Shown: piece by piece, positions 1 through 6,000 of the stretch | How positions within the stretch are numbered: the stretch's first letter is position 1 | How the letters are laid out: every line of letters starts with the position of its first letter | Virus record (IMG/VR): IMGVR_UViG_2541047121_000026 | Source of the DNA: a virus | Lineage: Duplodnaviria; Heunggongvirae; Uroviricota; Caudoviricetes | Direction: 5' to 3' (one strand) | DNA: 8,011 nucleotides | Program-made: the position numbers

Positions 1-3000
1 ATGAGCAGGGCAATTCATAGACTTAGCGACACTCTTTTACGAAAATTAAGCGGATCACCAACCACAAAAAACACCTTTTTTAATGATGGTGGCAACCTTA
101 GCGTAAGGCATTCAACCAATGGCCTGTTAACCTGGTATTTCACTTACAGGGCCGGAACTGGTAGGCAGATATCACCGGAACGTCTGAGGCTGGGCAATTA
201 TCCCGATCTGAGCCTGAAAGCTGCCAGGGAAAAAGCGGCACAGTGTCGCGCCTGGCTGGCTGAGGGGAAAAATCCGCGCTATGAACTTAATCATGCTGTA
301 CAGGACGCGTTAGCCCCCGTGACGGTTAAGGAAGCGCTCACTTACTGGCTTGAATCGTACGCAAAGGAAAAGCGCACTGACTACGAATCACTGAAAAGCC
401 GGATCAATAAACACATAATTAGCCAGATTGGCGCTATGCCACTGGAAAAATGCGAGCTACGCCACTGGCTGGCCTGTTTTGACCAGCTTGCTAAGCGTAA
501 TCCGGTATCAGCCGGATTTTTGCTACAGGTATGCAAACAGGCGCTTAAGTACTGCCGAAAACGACGATACGCAATCAGCAACGTTCTTGATGATATGGTT
601 GTCGGTGATGTTGGGAAAAAAGCAGAAATAAGCGAGCGCGTACTAACAAACAAGGAGCTTGGGGAATTACTACGCGCCCTTGATGAAAAAATTTACCCAC
701 CGTACTACAGCGCCCTGATTCGCCTCCTGATTGTCTTCGGATGTCGTACCACTGAGCTAAGACGCTCTGAGGTCCAGGAATGGGATTTTAAAGAAATGCT
801 CTGGACCGTGCCGAAAGAACACAGCAAAACGAAGGTAGCAATATTCAGGCCAATACCGGAAGCGATCTTGCCGTTTGTCATGAAGCTGGTGGAGCAGAAC
901 AGGCACACGGGCTTATTGCTCGGAGAACTGAAAGGGCAATCATCCGTATCAGAGTACGGAAGAACGGCACACAGACGCATTAATCAAGCCCCCTGGACGT
1001 TGCACGACATCCGGCACACGTTTACAACGATGCTGAACGATTTAGGCGTGGAACCGCATGTTGTGGAGCAGCTTACCGCGCACCAGTTGCCAGGAATGCA
1101 ACGAGTCTATAATCACTCCCGTTATCTTGATGCAAAACGTGACGCTCTTAATCTATGGGTTGAGCGTCTCGAGCTTCTCCAGAACAATGATAAAAAAATC
1201 GTTGTTATGACCCCGCGAATTTACTCCCAAAATTCTTGACAAATTATGGCTGTTTTTCTTGCGAAAAATGGCCCTCTAAAATAAATCGTCGAAGTTCGAC
1301 CAAAGTTCGTCGTTTTTTTATTTGTCAATCATCGAAAAAATTGAAATTCACTCTCCTGAATCCTTATTCTCTGTTTCTTGATTGTTCCAACACCTGATGG
1401 TTTATCTATTTGTTTTTAATGAGATAATTTAAGTGTAATACCAAATGACGACATTTTTTTGTTGCGTCGCTTAAAAACTCGTGACACGATTTTATGAACA
1501 GCAGCAAACTCTAGCGAACTTTGACGAACATAAAGTTCAGAAAGGTTACGTATTCAATTTAAGAGGTAAGAAAAGCTAAGAAGTAATATCTTTCCGTATA
1601 TCCACAGCGAAACAAAAATTTCTATACGTAATTTTATGTAGGACTTTTTATGCGCGAAATAAATGAAGATCGTGTAATCCGCGAAAAAGAATGCAGAGAG
1701 CTAACAGGCGTTTGCCGCACAACTCGTTACGAGATGGAAAAGCAGGGCCGCTTCCCCTCACGTATCAGTCTCGGCGGTCGTTCTGTTGGCTGGGTTAAGT
1801 CTGAGGTTATGGAATGGGTTAAAAGCAGAAATCGTATTAATTCAGGTAAGGCAGCGTAGGGGGAACATATGACACATAAAACAAAGGCGACCTGTGGCGG
1901 TCGCCAATGGGAAAACACTAAACATAAGCCAGAACATCATAGCGATTTGCTGTCTGGTGGGCAATGTGCTCAGTGTGCTGGCTTGCTGGTGGGCTATTCC
2001 TGCTCTTTGGCCTTGCGGCGCTGGCGGCGTTTGATTTCGCCTTTAACGGCAGTAACTATAAATTGCGCTTTGCTTTCACCTTCATCTAAATTTTTTTCTA
2101 AGTCTGCAACAACATCATGCGGGAATCTGGCATTTAACTGTTGCGACTTATTATTTGTTGAACCTGTTGCCATTACTGAATCCTCTCTAAGTTGGTGCGA
2201 TTCAGTATACACAAAAAAAATTCAGAGAAAAGGCTTGAAGTGCGATTCACTTGCTGATAGGTTAAAAACAGATGGTGCGATGCACCAAATAACAACGCCC
2301 CGCAGTGGTGGCACACATGCAGGGCGTCTAACAACCAACGATAGCAACAGTATCGAGGTAGCTATGTTAAATCATACCACACACCCGCAAGGGCGGGACT
2401 CGCACAACCTGAATAAATACATCTGGCGTTTTCTGGCCCTGAGTGCCGGAGAATCTCAAATCATCCACGTAACCGCCTGGACGGAACGCGAAGCGCGTAG
2501 CCGTTGCCCGTCAGGTTGTGTTGCTGTATTTGTCGCCCGTATTCGTCAGGGGGTGTGCCGTGCTTAAAACCTTCCGCGTTTTTTCCCGTGCTGTTAACAA
2601 GCGCGGCTATACCGTTGGCATCACGCAGAACGTGAAGGCCGTTAATATGCAAGCGGCGATTGATTCAGTAATCAGTAATTCCGGTAAAGCAGGTTTATCA
2701 CATGTAATTATTGCAGCAGTACATGAATTAAAAGGGGGGGGCATTAATGAAGGAAATTACATTACACGAAATTGCGGAAAGAGCGTAGCAGGTTGAAATC
2801 ATTTGCCGCCTTCTTGAGGTATACCCTGACAAACTTACGGATGCCGATATATCCGCGATTTCCAGTCTTCTGGCGCGTCTTTCCGGCAATGTGTCGGCAT
2901 GGTTAATTGCGGAGGGAGAGCAATACAATGAACAATAACAAACTGGCGACCATTGAATTAAGAATCCTTGCCAACAGCGCAATATCTTTAAACAACGCAG

Positions 3001-6000
3001 CGAACGAAGTAATGAACATGTGGCTTCAGTCGCTGGTGAATAATGAACGCGATGAATCAACCGCAAGATTAATATTTGCCGTTTCTGAATTACTGGATAG
3101 TTCAACCAGCAAAATAGAGAGCATATCAGAGAAGATTAACGGCTTATCAGGTCACGCTATCGGAGAATAAAAATAATGAAACTTAAATATCCTGGCTTAA
3201 CTGCCAGCGGCAAAACTCGCACTAAATTCATGTGCGGGGATATTTACCGCGATAAGTACGGCGGCACGGTAATGATTAAGGGCGTGGAGGAACGGCGCGT
3301 AACTTACCGCCGTGAAGGCTACGAATATGATTGCGTTATGCCTGTTTATCAGTTCAACCGTGATTTTTCTCTGGTACAGGCAGCGCCCCGCAGTAAGCCA
3401 ACCAGCAGGGAGAAAGCACGCGCCAATATTCAGGAAATAAAAAAGATGCTTAACGTATTCAGGGGTAAGAAATGAAACTGGCACCGAACGTAAAAAAACA
3501 GCCACGCGGAATAAAACACAAAGACACAGAGGTGATTATTTTCGCGGGTAGTGATGCGTGGGCACATGCAAAACAGTGGCAGGAGCAGGACGGCCCCGCA
3601 TCCGGCGATAATGTGCCTCCTGTGTGGCTTGGGCCAAATCAGCTTGCCGAACTTTATGCACTGCAAATTGTTCCTGATGGAAAAAAACGCGTAAGGCTGT
3701 ACCAGGCAGGAGAACTGGACTTGGTGGAGACCAAAAAGATTGGTCAGAAGCTGGCGGCGGCAGGCGTACAGGATGCAAAATTTTACCCCGAAGGAATGCA
3801 CGGTCAGAAGTGTGAAAACTGGCGGCGCTATCTGAATGCTGAGCGTGAAAATATTGCCGCAGGGCTTACCATGCCGGAGCAGAAAAATACGCAACTGGCA
3901 CAAATGGCAGACAGTGAGCGCGCACAGATGCTTGCTGGTCGATTTGATGGCGTTTGTGTACATCCTGAAAGTGAAATCGTTCACGTATGGCGCGGCGGGG
4001 TATGGTGTCCGGTCAGCACAATGGAACTTAGCCGCGAAATGGTGGCGATCTATTCAGAGCACAGGGCCACTTTCAGCAAACGCGTGATCAATAACGCCGT
4101 TGAAGCGTTAAAAGTTATTGCCGAACCAATGGGGGAGCCGTCCGGCGATTTGCTGCCGTTCGCCAATGGTGCACTTGACCTGAAAACGGGGGAATTTTCC
4201 CCGCACACGCCGGAGAACTGGATCACCACGCACAACGGCATTGAGTACACGCCACCAGCACCAGGGGAGAACATTCGCGACAACGCGCCAAACTTTCATA
4301 AATGGCTTGAGCACGCAGCCGGAAAAGACCCGCGCAAGATGATGCGTATATGTGCCGCGCTGTACATGATTATGGCGAACCGGTACGACTGGCAGATGTT
4401 TATTGAGGCCACCGGAGACGGCGGGAGCGGTAAAAGTACATTCACACACATAGCCAGCCTTCTGGCAGGGAAACAGAACACCGTAAGCGCGGAGATGACG
4501 TCACTCGATGATGCAGGAGGGCGCGCGCAGGTTGTCGGGAGTCGTCTTATCGTCCTGGCTGACCAGCCGAAATATACAGGCGAAGGAACGGGCATCAAGA
4601 AAATCACGGGCGGCGACCCCGTGGAAATTAACCCGAAATATGAAAAGCGTTTCACGGCGGTAATCAGGGCGGTGGTGCTGGCGACCAACAACAACCCGAT
4701 GATATTCACCGAACGGGCCGGAGGCGTGGCACGTCGTCGGGTTATTTTTCGCTTTGACAATATCGTTAGCGAGGCAGAAAAGGACAAGGATTTGCCGGAG
4801 AAGGTCGCGGCTGAAATCCCTGTGATTATCCGCCGCTTGCTGGCTAATTTTGCTGACCCTGAAAAGGCACGGGCTTTATTACTGGAACAGCGCGACGGTG
4901 ATGAAGCACTGGCGATAAAGCAACAGACAGATCCGGTTATTGAGTTTTGCCAGTTCCTGAATTTTCTGGAGGAAGCGCGCGGCCTGATGATGGGTGGCGG
5001 TGGCGATTCCGTGAAGTACACGACCAGAAACAGCCTTTACCGCGTCTATCTGGCGTTTATGGCATACGCAGGAAGAAGCAAGCCGCTAAACGTGGCTGAT
5101 TTCAGCAAGGCCATGAAGCCAGCGGCGAAAGTTTACGGACATGAATATATTACGCGAAAAGTTAAGGGAGTAACGCAGACCAACGCAATTACAACGGATG
5201 ATTGTGACGCGTTTTTATAATTTTTTGTAAAAGCCCTCTACCCCATCTACCTGAATGAAATAAACGCATATTATTCAACATGATAAGTGGGTAGAGGGAT
5301 AGGTAGAAGGCTAATAAAACCCCTCTACCCCCTCTACCATGATTAAGGTCGTTTGTGAGGGGCGGGTAGAGGATGGGTAGAGGGCCACGAAAAGTCCTCT
5401 ACCCATCTGAAAGCCGCGCCATTACTGACCTGAAAGATGATTAGGTAGAAGAGGTAGAGGAGGTGCACCACAACCTAAAACTTTTTAAACGAGGGGGGTA
5501 AAAATAAATGTGCATACATCAAAATCACTTAACAAACATGCCGACCGAAAACATGAATCAGGGGCGACAAATGACCAAAATGCGCAGAGACAGAACACAG
5601 CAAAAATATAAAGCGTTAGACATGACAGAGCTTTCCCTAAAGGTGGCAATCAAAGTTATAGACCGCCACACACGGGAAGGATACGCGAAGGAGAATCCCG
5701 AACTAATAAGCGCATTCATGACCACGGCGGCGGCAAACTTTGCCACGCTGACAGAGCGGGAGATTGCAGAAGCGGAACAGGTAACAACCATCAACGTTAA
5801 AAGCACTGGAGAATAACCGAAGGAGTGAGCACATAGCCGGAGCAATCCGGCTTTTTTTCGATCTCTCATATCTTAAAAAATGGTTGATTAATGATAATCT
5901 ATCGAAAATACTGATTATGCGATGATAAGTATCAGGAGGAAACAAAGTGGAAGAGATAAAGCAAAGCGCTACCGTGATGATTGATCACGAGATCCTAAAC

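What the first reader, a model, noticed from the sequence alone, without database searches (positions are those of the whole stretch)
2280..3475. Block of four small unrecognisable ORFs between the repressor switch and the primase: candidate accessory or interference cargo, or partly an RNA element
Seen in sequence: after the divergent control region one frame stays open for about 118 codons (2213-2567), followed by ORFs of 78, 80 and 99 aa (2560-2796, 2928-3170, 3176-3475), the last translationally coupled to the primase (ATGA overlap). None carries a motif I recognise. The first has atypical composition and GC-rich hairpins (for example CCCGC-aagg-GCGGG at 2384-2397). Established knowledge: in P4-like satellites and PICIs the slots around alpA and the replication genes are where variable cargo, including anti-phage systems and helper-interference genes, is found; P4 immunity is RNA-based (CI RNA). 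Inference: this block is the most likely place in the window for an undescribed function, but I cannot name one from sequence alone.
Basis: partly seen in the sequence, partly recalled or inferred. Interest (0 to 1): 0.5.

Follow-up and report, generated by a model that had tools for sequence, protein, structure and literature searches.

The report
Satellite early operon with antisense RNA
The four "unrecognisable" ORFs are the early, replication-gating operon of an E. coli phage satellite, laid out like the phage P4 left operon (a Kil/Icd-type gene, variable small genes, a DUF4222 partner of the primase), and its start probably carries an undescribed small antisense RNA instead of the P4/P1 immunity RNA.

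Summary
ORF1 (2364-2567) belongs to the Icd-like family, as does P4 Kil. It is nested in a 232-codon frame that starts 10 nt after alpA. That frame stays open in 15 of 19 unrelated upstream sequence types, against about 1 expected, which matches the P4 eta/kil layout. The last ORF is DUF4222 (the RgdR family). It overlaps the primase start in 82 of 82 related loci, so it is a core partner of the primase.

Only the middle genes are variable. In this window the 78-aa ORF is a 61-aa gene frameshifted at a G8 tract. The "gap" at 2797-2927 is a 63-aa gene carrying a TAG stop. No ORF matches a defence family.

No C4/CI RNA is present. The leader (2295-2364) nevertheless shows strong covariation. Pairing is 98.5% on the minus strand against 83-85% on the plus strand, with 119 against 2 G·U cells. 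A U-rich tail follows the hairpin on the minus strand, and an invariant extended -10 lies inside icd.

I infer a ~75-nt cis-antisense RNA over the icd ribosome-binding site. Expression is untested. This is a new variant of a known kind.

The parts
1650..1859 (+). alpA (AlpA-family activator/excisionase). Its stop at 1857-1859 lies 10 nt before the long ORF's ATG.
   Evidence: Pfam Phage_AlpA, 64.5 bits; RefSeq annotation of L001.
1869..2567 (+). Long 'eta-like' ORF of 232 codons. It starts after a GGGGGA Shine-Dalgarno just downstream of alpA. It runs antisense through ylcI and across the divergent promoter region, and ends as the Icd-like gene.
   Evidence: The in-frame ORF is open for at least 28 codons upstream of the icd Met in 62/63 unique loci, against 0-1/63 in the other frames. 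It starts 9-15 nt after the alpA stop in many loci. It is open in 15/19 unrelated intergenic types, against 1.16 expected. It has no protein-family hit of its own.
1994..2173 (-). YlcI/YnfO-family small protein, read here as ribbon-helix-helix-like. It is the divergently transcribed candidate repressor.
   Evidence: NF041551, 62.8 bits; RefSeq. The ribbon-helix-helix assignment is from reading the sequence (inference).
2195..2284 (.). Three direct repeats GTGCGAT(T/G)CA at 2195, 2240 and 2275. They flank and overlap the divergent promoters and look like operators.
   Evidence: family D6. Every other upstream type has its own 10-11-bp repeats at the same places (listing).
2235..2263 (+). Putative rightward promoter: -35 TTGAAG at 2235-2240, a 17-nt spacer, and -10 TAGGTT at 2258-2263.
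   Evidence: Read from the sequence. The same TTGA(A/C)G-17-TAnnnT layout appears in L001, L017 and L059. Inference; not reported by the strict scan.
2287..2364 (-). Candidate cis-antisense sRNA of about 75 nt. SL1 (2328-2364) is complementary to the icd start codon, the SD (GAGG, 2355-2358) and hairpin 2. SL2 (2295-2327) is a GC-rich terminator-like hairpin followed by a U-rich tail.
   Evidence: RNAalifold on the minus strand. 98.5% of cells pair, 8 pairs show double changes, and 0/500 shuffles reach this. Minus against plus strand: 98.5% vs 83-85% paired, 119 vs 2 G·U cells, and the minus-strand fold is more stable in 30/30. Tail: 5.3 T in 9 nt, against a 31% background.
2371..2379 (-). Extended -10 promoter element TGgTATGAT on the minus strand. 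The predicted start is near 2364.
   Evidence: Read from the sequence. The TA...T and TG positions are invariant in 50 sequences, and the variants are TATAAT and TATAGT. Inference; there is no -35 element.
2328..2422 (.). Nearly invariant 95-nt block spanning the icd start. It is C-rich and G-poor (26 C against 17 G).
   Evidence: Third codon positions are the most conserved in icd codons 1-18 (entropy 0.17/0.12/0.04), unlike the icd core (0.18/0.25/0.46). The block is present at 90% identity or more in 1029 of 5426 complete E. coli genomes.
2384..2397 (.). It lies 8-21 nt upstream of the minus-strand -10.
   Evidence: The stem varies in at most 1 of 50 sequences per pair, so there is no covariation information.
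2364..2567 (+). Icd/Kil-like gene, 67 aa.
   Evidence: NF033153, 63.5 bits. P4 Kil hits the same model at 76.1 bits. The core shows coding-type substitution. RefSeq names it 'host cell division inhibitor Icd-like protein'.
2560..2796 (+). g2: a small gene of unknown function (phrog_3672). It is 61 aa when intact. Here it is frameshifted at the G8 tract (2734-2741), giving a 78-aa ORF.
   Evidence: pN/pS is 0.36.
2747..2938 (+). g3: a 63-codon gene (phrog_1478) inactivated by a TAG at 2786-2788.
   Evidence: RefSeq records it as a pseudogene with an 'internal stop' in L002. pN/pS is 0.26-0.41.
2928..3170 (+). g4: an 80-aa protein found only in E. coli (phrog_5796), predicted to be a two-helix hairpin.
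   Evidence: AlphaFold2 pLDDT is 82.5. The fold search gave only generic helical hairpins. pN/pS is 0.35.
3176..3475 (+). DUF4222 protein, 99 aa, of the RgdR family. It is translationally coupled to the primase by an ATGA overlap.
3472..5220 (+). P4-alpha-type replication protein with D5_N, DUF5906 and Pox_D5 domains.
   Evidence: RefSeq 'DNA primase family protein'.

Best explanation
The block is the early (replication-gating) operon of an AlpA-type phage satellite (PICI) integrated between cspD and clpS. It is built like the left operon of phage P4.

Gene order:
- The first gene is a Kil/Icd-type small protein. In P1 and P4 this type inhibits cell division or kills the cell when overexpressed.
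- It is the 3' end of a long reading frame that begins just after alpA.
- Behind it lies a variable slot of small genes. Here there are three, and two of them are broken.
- Last comes a DUF4222 protein that is always translationally coupled to the primase/helicase.

Proposed working (inferred by analogy with P4):
- Transcripts from the local promoter depend on the icd ribosome-binding site.
- A ~75-nt antisense RNA, made from an extended -10 promoter inside icd and ending at the covarying hairpin, pairs with that site and blocks icd translation.
- The untranslated C-rich leader then lets Rho terminate transcription, so the primase stays silent.
- When a helper phage switches on alpA, ribosomes continue from alpA into the long frame, read through the leader, and carry transcription into the replication genes.
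- The divergent YlcI-like protein, with its type-specific operator repeats, is the likely protein repressor of the local promoter.

Shown: the homologies, the gene order, the conserved open frame, the strand-specific RNA structure, and the DUF4222-primase coupling.

Inferred: the antisense promoter, Rho involvement, the role of the repressor, and all phenotypes.
For: Homology:
- ORF1 and P4 Kil both hit NF033153 (63.5 and 76.1 bits).
- The PHROG label 'transcriptional repressor' most likely traces to P4's old 'cI gene product' CDS, which hits the same PHROG family, phrog_1743.

Nested long frame:
- It is open in 62/63 sequences, against 0-1/63 in the other frames.
- It is open in 15/19 unrelated upstream types, against 1.16 expected.
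- Its ATG lies 9-15 nt after the alpA stop.
- The ylcI-icd phase is kept in 18/21 alleles.
- The P4 eta/kil logic is summarised in PMC10111431.

RNA:
- No C4, isrK or c4-a1b1 hit in the window, although all three are found in P4.
- The hairpin at 2295-2327 has 9/13 pairs with compensatory changes, and 0/500 shuffles reach this.
- On the minus strand 98.5% of cells pair, against 83-85% on the plus strand.
- G·U cells number 119 against 2, and the minus-strand fold is more stable in 30/30.
- There is a U-rich tail in 31 distinct variants.
- The TGnTAnnnT element is invariant, and synonymous sites in icd codons 1-18 are conserved.
- L024 carries a second Icd module with a genuine C4 RNA, so the two leader types are interchangeable cassettes.

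Core versus variable genes:
- DUF4222 plus primase occurs in 82/82 loci. g2, g3 and g4 occur in 10, 13 and 19 of 82.
- There are no PADLOC hits.
Against: - There are no expression data. The antisense promoter has no -35 element and was found by eye; the strict promoter scan did not list it.
- The minus-strand structure was predicted on a minus-strand alignment, which favours it somewhat. The G·U asymmetry does not depend on that.
- The hairpin can still form on the plus strand (87% of cells), so a role in the sense leader is not excluded.
- The open frame across the antisense of ylcI is not itself surprising: P is about 0.5 under synonymous resampling.
- 4 of 19 upstream types have a closed frame.
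- All comparison loci come from E. coli-like hosts and are related by recombination.
- Rho termination and the repressor role are by analogy only.
- The original P4 paper (Forti 1999) could not be read here.
Confidence: 0.6

Rival explanations
1. One reading: the block is accessory cargo, namely anti-phage or helper-interference genes inserted between the switch and the primase.
For: g2, g3 and g4 occupy a variable slot, present in 10-19 of 82 loci, with 510-1559 nt between icd and the primase. In P4 the same slot holds epsilon, a helper-derepression gene. All three are real genes under purifying selection with no known function.
Against: The first and last genes are constant components. There is no PADLOC hit. 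Two of the three middle genes are inactivated in this window. g4 is a generic helical hairpin.
Confidence: 0.15
2. The covarying hairpin works in the sense (plus-strand) leader. It would be a target or kissing-loop site for a trans-acting C4-like RNA from another element, or a stabiliser or processing site of the icd mRNA. No antisense RNA would be made.
For: In P1 and P4 the C4/CI targets are hairpin-presented sites next to the icd/kil ribosome-binding site (Rfam c4-a1b1 structure). The hairpin lies in the predicted sense leader. Its loop is hypervariable, as immunity-specificity loops are.
Against: Pairing is much poorer on the plus strand (83-85% against 98.5%). G·U cells number 2 against 119, and the plus-strand fold is less stable in 30/30. 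The U-rich tail is on the minus strand only. No C4 RNA is present in the island.
Confidence: 0.12
3. The minus-strand transcript is not a discrete sRNA. It would be the leader of an 'establishment' transcript for the ylcI repressor gene (like lambda PRE, which is antisense to cro), with the hairpin acting as an attenuator.
For: ylcI lies directly downstream on the minus strand. The arrangement gives face-to-face promoters about 100 nt apart. Inference.
Against: A strong GC hairpin plus U tract sits between the promoter and ylcI, and a second terminator-like site lies at 2287-2273. ylcI has its own -10-like TATACT and a Shine-Dalgarno close to its start (sequence).
Confidence: 0.1
4. The inverted repeat at 2295-2327 is a DNA operator for a dimeric regulator. 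The compensatory changes would reflect co-evolving half-sites.
For: Type-specific repeats are common in this control region. Compensatory changes keep the two arms complementary, as a palindromic operator would need.
Against: A DNA palindrome predicts no strand asymmetry, yet 119 G·U-type positions pair on one strand only. Loop length varies from 4 to 7 nt, with bulges. The hairpin type is uncoupled from the ylcI allele: the window-type hairpin occurs with both 100% and 53% ylcI alleles.
Confidence: 0.04

Closest known systems
Phage P4 left operon (PLE/PLL, CI RNA, kil nested in eta, epsilon, orf151, cnr, alpha)
   Same: - The gene order matches: alpA/vis homologue, long frame, nested Kil/Icd-family gene, small genes, a ~100-aa gene abutting the alpha-type primase.
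- The long frame starts right after the alpA homologue (PMC10111431).
- The start of kil is C-rich.
   Different: - There is no C4/CI RNA and no seqA/seqC-type target.
- A divergent YlcI-like gene is embedded antisense in the long frame.
- A candidate cis-antisense RNA takes the place of the trans-acting CI RNA.
- The gene before the primase is DUF4222, not Cnr (DUF5375). Any relation between the two was not tested.
- BLASTP does not align the 117-residue frame containing the Icd-like gene (2214-2564) with P4's 138-aa 'cI' ORF, which contains Kil. The link rests on the shared HMM only.
Phage P1/P7 immI operon (c4 antisense RNA - icd - ant)
   Same: An Icd-family gene whose ribosome-binding site is the point of RNA control for the genes downstream (PMC8198154; NF033153).
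   Different: In P1 the regulator is the processed, trans-acting C4 RNA made from the same strand. Here the candidate RNA comes from the opposite strand and is fully complementary. The downstream genes are replication genes, not an antirepressor.
Cis-antisense regulators of phage or plasmid leaders: P22 sar (immI, with ribbon-helix-helix repressors Arc/Mnt), lambda OOP, hok/sok/mok
   Same: From my own knowledge: these are RNAs of about 65-80 nt, made from a promoter inside or next to the target gene, complementary to its ribosome-binding site, and ending in an intrinsic terminator. In hok/sok an overlapping upstream frame (mok) is also involved.
   Different: There is no sequence or Rfam relationship. 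Icd-like proteins are not Hok-type membrane peptides. Expression here is unproven.
RgdR (ECs1581, OI-51/CP-933C of E. coli O157:H7), a DUF4222 protein
   Same: The same Pfam family. RgdR is likewise encoded on a small phage-like island (PMC10877973; PMC8565820).
   Different: RgdR's reported activity (LEE/T3SS activation) needs an RGD motif. The window protein has C-G-D at residues 20-22, like the inactive R20C orthologue ECED1_1787. The constant coupling to the primase found here is not mentioned in the two reviews of RgdR read here.
Gram-negative PICIs such as EcCICFT073 (Fillol-Salom 2018)
   Same: int - alpA - small genes - pri, followed by a terS-like gene and capsid-related genes. AlpA is the helper-induced activator (PMC6092414).
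   Different: That paper says a global repressor is unclear, and that only AlpA, Pri-Rep and Int resemble P4 proteins. Here a Kil/Icd homologue, an eta-like frame and a candidate repressor/antisense module are added. I did not test whether this island is inducible.

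Membership tests
Icd-like / P4 Kil family (NCBIfam NF033153) | Match to the family HMM above its curated cutoff | tested here: met
   63.5 bits against a cutoff of 25. P4 Kil scores 76.1 bits.
Icd-like / P4 Kil family (NCBIfam NF033153) | Inhibits cell division or kills the cell when expressed | not testable with these tools
   Known for P1 Icd (PMC8198154) and P4 Kil (PMC10111431).
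P4-type immunity region | C4/CI-family RNA in the leader | tested here: not met
   No hit at E <= 1 over the whole window or E <= 10 over 1860-2960. P4 control: C4 at 74.9 bits.
P4-type immunity region | seqA/seqC-type target sites (Rfam c4-a1b1 / isrK) | tested here: not met
   No hits. Both are found in P4 and in L024.
P4-type immunity region | kil nested in frame in a long ORF (eta) that starts next to the alpA/vis homologue | tested here: met
   The 1869-2567 frame. Conservation of the open frame and of its start position is shown.
P4-type immunity region | Rho-dependent terminator within kil that is suppressed by translation | not testable with these tools
   The only indication is a C-rich, G-poor, nucleotide-conserved block at 2328-2422.
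Intrinsically terminated cis-antisense sRNA | GC-rich stem-loop followed by a U tract on the transcribed strand, supported by covariation | tested here: met
Intrinsically terminated cis-antisense sRNA | A promoter at a suitable distance | tested here: inconclusive
   The extended -10 TGgTATGAT is invariant in 50 sequences, but there is no -35 element and the strict scan did not report it.
Intrinsically terminated cis-antisense sRNA | A detectable transcript | not testable with these tools
   No RNA-seq data were available, and no paper describing it was found.
DUF4222 / RgdR | Pfam PF13973 domain | tested here: met
   85.7 bits against a cutoff of 27.
DUF4222 / RgdR | RGD tripeptide required for T3SS activation | tested here: not met
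   Residues 20-22 are C-G-D. R20C abolishes activity in ECED1_1787 (PMC10877973).
Anti-phage defence systems (PADLOC-DB) | Any ORF of the block matches a defence-system model | tested here: not met
   0 families for 7 proteins at E <= 0.1.
Gram-negative PICI | int, alpA and a P4-alpha-type pri in that order, small size, chromosomal site | tested here: met
   The island lies between yljB/cspD and clpS.
Gram-negative PICI | Induction and packaging by a helper phage | not testable with these tools
   No experiment was possible.

The most novel reading that the evidence does not exclude
AlpA-type satellites of E. coli carry an undescribed family of ~75-nt cis-antisense RNAs ('anti-icd'). This RNA would replace the C4/CI immunity RNA of P1 and P4. 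Together with a type-specific YlcI-like repressor and an alpA-coupled read-through frame, it would form the long-sought silencing switch of Gram-negative PICIs. The conserved 98-nt block that spans the icd start and overlaps the predicted RNA is present in about 19% of complete E. coli genomes.
Probability: 0.4. Interest if true: 0.65.

Novelty: new variant of a known kind. Interest (0 to 1): 0.5.

Why it matters
How Gram-negative PICIs are kept silent is described as unclear in the founding paper (PMC6092414). If the reading here is right, these islands use P4 logic, in which translation of a Kil-type leader gene gates transcription into the replication genes. They would do so with a different RNA (cis-antisense) and a protein repressor that has allele-specific operators.

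That would give directly testable handles:
- one promoter,
- one hairpin,
- one reading frame.

The element occurs in roughly one in five sequenced E. coli genomes.

The work also re-labels DUF4222, known only as the virulence regulator RgdR, as a constant partner of satellite primases. For genome annotation, it shows that the 'transcriptional repressor' PHROG label on these genes most likely comes from the obsolete P4 cI CDS.

Tried and rejected
- **C4/CI or isrK RNA in the window.** Searched twice and absent. The method was validated on P4.
- **Defence function.** No PADLOC hits.
- **BLASTP of the window's 117-residue frame (2214-2564) against P4's 138-aa 'cI' ORF that contains Kil.** No alignment. 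The link rests on the shared HMM.
- **Scan of one genome per species for relatives.** Only 2 loci. The IMG/VR scan gave 80.
- **The 13/14-nt repeat of the hairpin arm inside DUF4222 (2293-2306 and 3381-3394) as a second RNA target.** It does not covary across loci, so it is chance.
- **Long-ORF openness across the antisense of ylcI as evidence.** Weak: P is about 0.5 under synonymous resampling. The argument rests instead on the intergenic part.
- **ATG 2280 as the 'true' icd start.** PHROG scores rise with the longer form. But the extra residues coincide with the RNA hairpin and show no third-position bias. ATG 2364 has the good Shine-Dalgarno.
- **PDB sequence searches for the Icd-like protein, g4 and DUF4222.** Nothing.
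- **Fold search for g4.** Only generic helical hairpins.
- **DUF4222 against complete phage genomes.** No match.
- **Esr41 and other O157 sRNAs.** They map to other islands.
- **The Forti 1999 paper.** Not held in the library.

Full report
**Context.** The 8-kb window is a chromosomal island of E. coli lying between yljB/cspD and clpS. Parts of it match 1820 of 5426 complete genomes. RefSeq annotates the following order:
- integrase
- an AlpA-type regulator
- a divergent YlcI/YnfO protein
- an Icd-like protein
- three or four hypothetical genes
- a DUF4222 protein
- a 'DNA primase family protein'
- a terminase small subunit
- a capsid protein

This is the layout of a Gram-negative phage-inducible chromosomal island (PMC6092414).

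**The observation.**
- The frame is in register from 2214, and it is open from 1860 (ATG 1869, 232 codons).
- Alignment with two related strains shows that the 78-aa ORF is a 61-aa gene (phrog_3672) frameshifted at a poly-G tract. The tract is G8 here and in L002, G6 in L001 and G7 in L016.
- The apparently empty stretch 2797-2927 is a fifth gene of 63 codons (phrog_1478, ATG 2747), inactivated by a TAG at codon 14. RefSeq flags both as pseudogenes in strain MB41-1.
- All three middle genes evolve like coding sequence, with pN/pS of 0.26-0.41.

**What the ORFs are.**
- ORF1 (2364-2564) hits NCBIfam NF033153 'host cell division inhibitor Icd-like' at 63.5 bits.
- I fetched phage P4. Its 65-aa Kil hits the same model at 76.1 bits. 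Both also hit phrog_1743, and P4's obsolete 'cI gene product' CDS, which hits it too, carries the same 'transcriptional repressor' label, the likely source of that name.
- The last ORF is Pfam DUF4222 at 85.7 bits. This is the family of RgdR, a prophage-island regulator of the LEE in O157:H7 (PMC10877973).
- The window protein has CGD where RgdR needs RGD.
- No ORF matches PADLOC defence models, and none has a sequence relative in the PDB.

**Core versus variable.**
- In 82 related loci with enough flank, a DUF4222 gene always abuts the primase gene with an ATGA or GTGA overlap. This holds even where the two proteins are only 31-33% and 27-48% identical to those of the window.
- DUF4222 is therefore a constant, translationally coupled partner of the replication protein. 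It sits where P4 has Cnr.
- Its AlphaFold2 model (pLDDT 72.5) is a small five-stranded barrel plus a C-terminal helix.
- By contrast, g2, g3 and g4 occur in only 10, 13 and 19 of the 82 loci. The distance from icd to the primase ranges from 510 to 1559 nt.
- g4 is an E. coli-only protein (29 clusters), predicted to be a helical hairpin with no informative fold match.
- So only the middle of the block is a variable slot. In this window two of its three genes are dead.

**The nested frame.**
- In 63 unique sequences the icd frame stays open for at least 28 codons upstream of the icd Met in 62, against 0 and 1 for the other two frames.
- The long frame usually begins at an ATG 9-15 nt after the stop of alpA. 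In the window the sequence reads TAG-GGGGGAACAT-ATG, with the ATG at 1869.
- I clustered the 120 nt upstream of the hairpin into 19 unrelated sequence types. The icd frame is open in 15, the other frames in 0 and 1, and shuffling predicts 1.16.
- The part that runs antisense through ylcI is not by itself informative, since P(open) is about 0.5. The ylcI-icd phase is nevertheless kept in 18 of 21 alleles.
- This is the arrangement described for P4. [quoted passage not shown] The original paper could not be read.

**The RNA question.**
- Rfam finds C4, isrK and c4-a1b1 in P4 but nothing in the window.
- Yet codon-position analysis shows that only the icd core (2418-2564) evolves like a plain coding sequence (entropy 0.18/0.25/0.46).
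- In icd codons 1-18 the third positions are the most conserved (0.17/0.12/0.04). The stretch 2328-2422 is almost invariant among sequences whose flanks are unrelated.
- Upstream, 2295-2327 is a hairpin whose sequence differs between types but always pairs. 9 of 13 pairs show compensatory changes, and 0 of 500 shuffles reach this.
- Folding the minus strand gives two stem-loops and a U-rich tail, with 98.5% of cells paired.
- Using the same pair set on both strands, pairing is 98.5-98.6% on the minus strand against 83-85% on the plus strand.
- There are 119 G·U cells on the minus strand against 2 on the plus strand. The minus-strand fold is more stable in 30 of 30 sequences for both stem-loops.
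- The nine bases after the hairpin on the minus strand average 5.3 T in 31 distinct variants, against a 31% background.
- Inside the invariant block lies TGgTATGAT, the complement of 2379-2371. This is an extended -10 whose TG and TA...T positions never vary and whose variants are TATAAT and TATAGT. It would start transcription near 2364.
- Together these features describe a ~75-nt cis-antisense RNA, complementary to the icd start codon, the Shine-Dalgarno and the leader, that ends at an intrinsic terminator.
- The strand asymmetry argues against a DNA palindrome and against a purely sense-strand hairpin.
- The promoter and the transcript itself remain inferences.

**A related locus supports modularity.** L024 has the hairpin-type Icd module, followed immediately by a second Icd-like frame that contains c4-a1b1 and a true C4 RNA (71 bits). 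The two kinds of leader thus appear to be interchangeable cassettes in front of Icd-like genes.

**The control region.**
- The window has three direct repeats GTGCGAT(T/G)CA at 2195, 2240 and 2275.
- They overlap a plausible rightward promoter (TTGAAG-17-TAGGTT, 2235-2263) and the ylcI start region.
- Each other upstream type has its own repeats at the same places.
- This fits a type-specific repressor, most simply the YlcI-like protein. That assignment is an inference.

**Proposed mechanism.**
- In the resting island, the repressor and the antisense RNA keep icd untranslated.
- The C-rich, G-poor leader (26 C against 17 G) then allows Rho-dependent termination, as at P4 timm, so DUF4222 and the primase are not made.
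- Helper-induced alpA transcription (PMC6092414) brings ribosomes through the long frame. These ribosomes do not need the icd ribosome-binding site, and they carry transcription into the replication genes.
- Shown: the homologies, the gene order, the frame conservation, the strand-specific structure and the coupling.
- Inferred: the promoter, Rho involvement, the repressor and all phenotypes.

**Prevalence.** The 98-nt conserved block (2328-2425) occurs at 90% identity or more in 1029 of 5426 complete E. coli genomes, at 1230 chromosomal places and up to six per genome.

**Verdict.** The finding as written, an anonymous cargo block, is largely explained as a known kind of operon. It does contain a probable new RNA regulator and a conserved read-through frame that have not been described for these islands. 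I found no paper or Rfam family for the RNA.

Noticed in passing
window 2734-2741: The poly-G tract at the g2/g3 junction differs in length between near-identical islands: G6 in L001, G7 in L016, and G8 in the window and L002. It switches g2 in and out of frame. This could be slippage (phase variation) or a sequencing artefact.
   Followed up: partly
window 2195-2284; L001 8236-8290; other loci in the listing: Each upstream sequence type has its own 10-11-bp repeats around the divergent promoters. The window has GTGCGATTCA three times. L001 has the inverted pair TGTAAGACAC/GTGTCTTACA. L057 has TGTGCGCACA twice. These suggest immunity types with matching repressor alleles.
   Followed up: partly
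L024 833-1339: A second Icd-like module sits directly behind the first. It has c4-a1b1 (913-962) and a C4 RNA (1030-1117) embedded in an open frame that ends in an Icd-like domain.
   Followed up: partly
window 1886-1905: A GC-rich hairpin GGCGACC-TGTGGC-GGTCGCC lies between alpA and the end of ylcI. On the minus strand it is followed by TTTGTTTT, so it is probably the ylcI terminator. It has no T-run on the plus strand, so read-through from alpA is possible. It gives a weak isrD-like Rfam hit (E = 0.19).
   Followed up: partly
L059 152-218; L005 432-500: The Rfam int-alpA RNA motif is present between int and alpA in some related islands. It was not detected in the window's int-alpA spacer (1240-1649).
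   Followed up: no
window 3472-5220: The 'primase' has D5_N, DUF5906 and Pox_D5 domains, but its first ~150 residues have no recognisable primase domain. It is 582 aa, against 777 aa for P4 alpha.
   Followed up: no
window 6296-7098: The terminase-small-subunit ORF can start at 6296 (209 aa), but RefSeq starts it at about 6444. The 53-aa ORF at 6937-7098 also resembles part of a small terminase subunit (phrog_641, E = 3.5e-07).
   Followed up: no
window 7088-8011 and L001 14018-14997: In L001 the capsid-family gene is the last annotated gene of the island, about 1 kb before clpS. No portal or protease gene is annotated in this island, so it is not a full capsid-forming PICI.
   Followed up: no
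window 3233-3241 (DUF4222 residues 20-22): The RgdR 'RGD' motif reads CGD here. Related loci have RGD, PGD, NGD or PGA at this position, so the motif is not conserved in primase-linked DUF4222 proteins.
   Followed up: partly
L001 17839-17866: A CRISPR-DR4 Rfam hit (50 bits) lies just after clpA, next to a second integrase. It is a single 28-nt match of unknown meaning.
   Followed up: no
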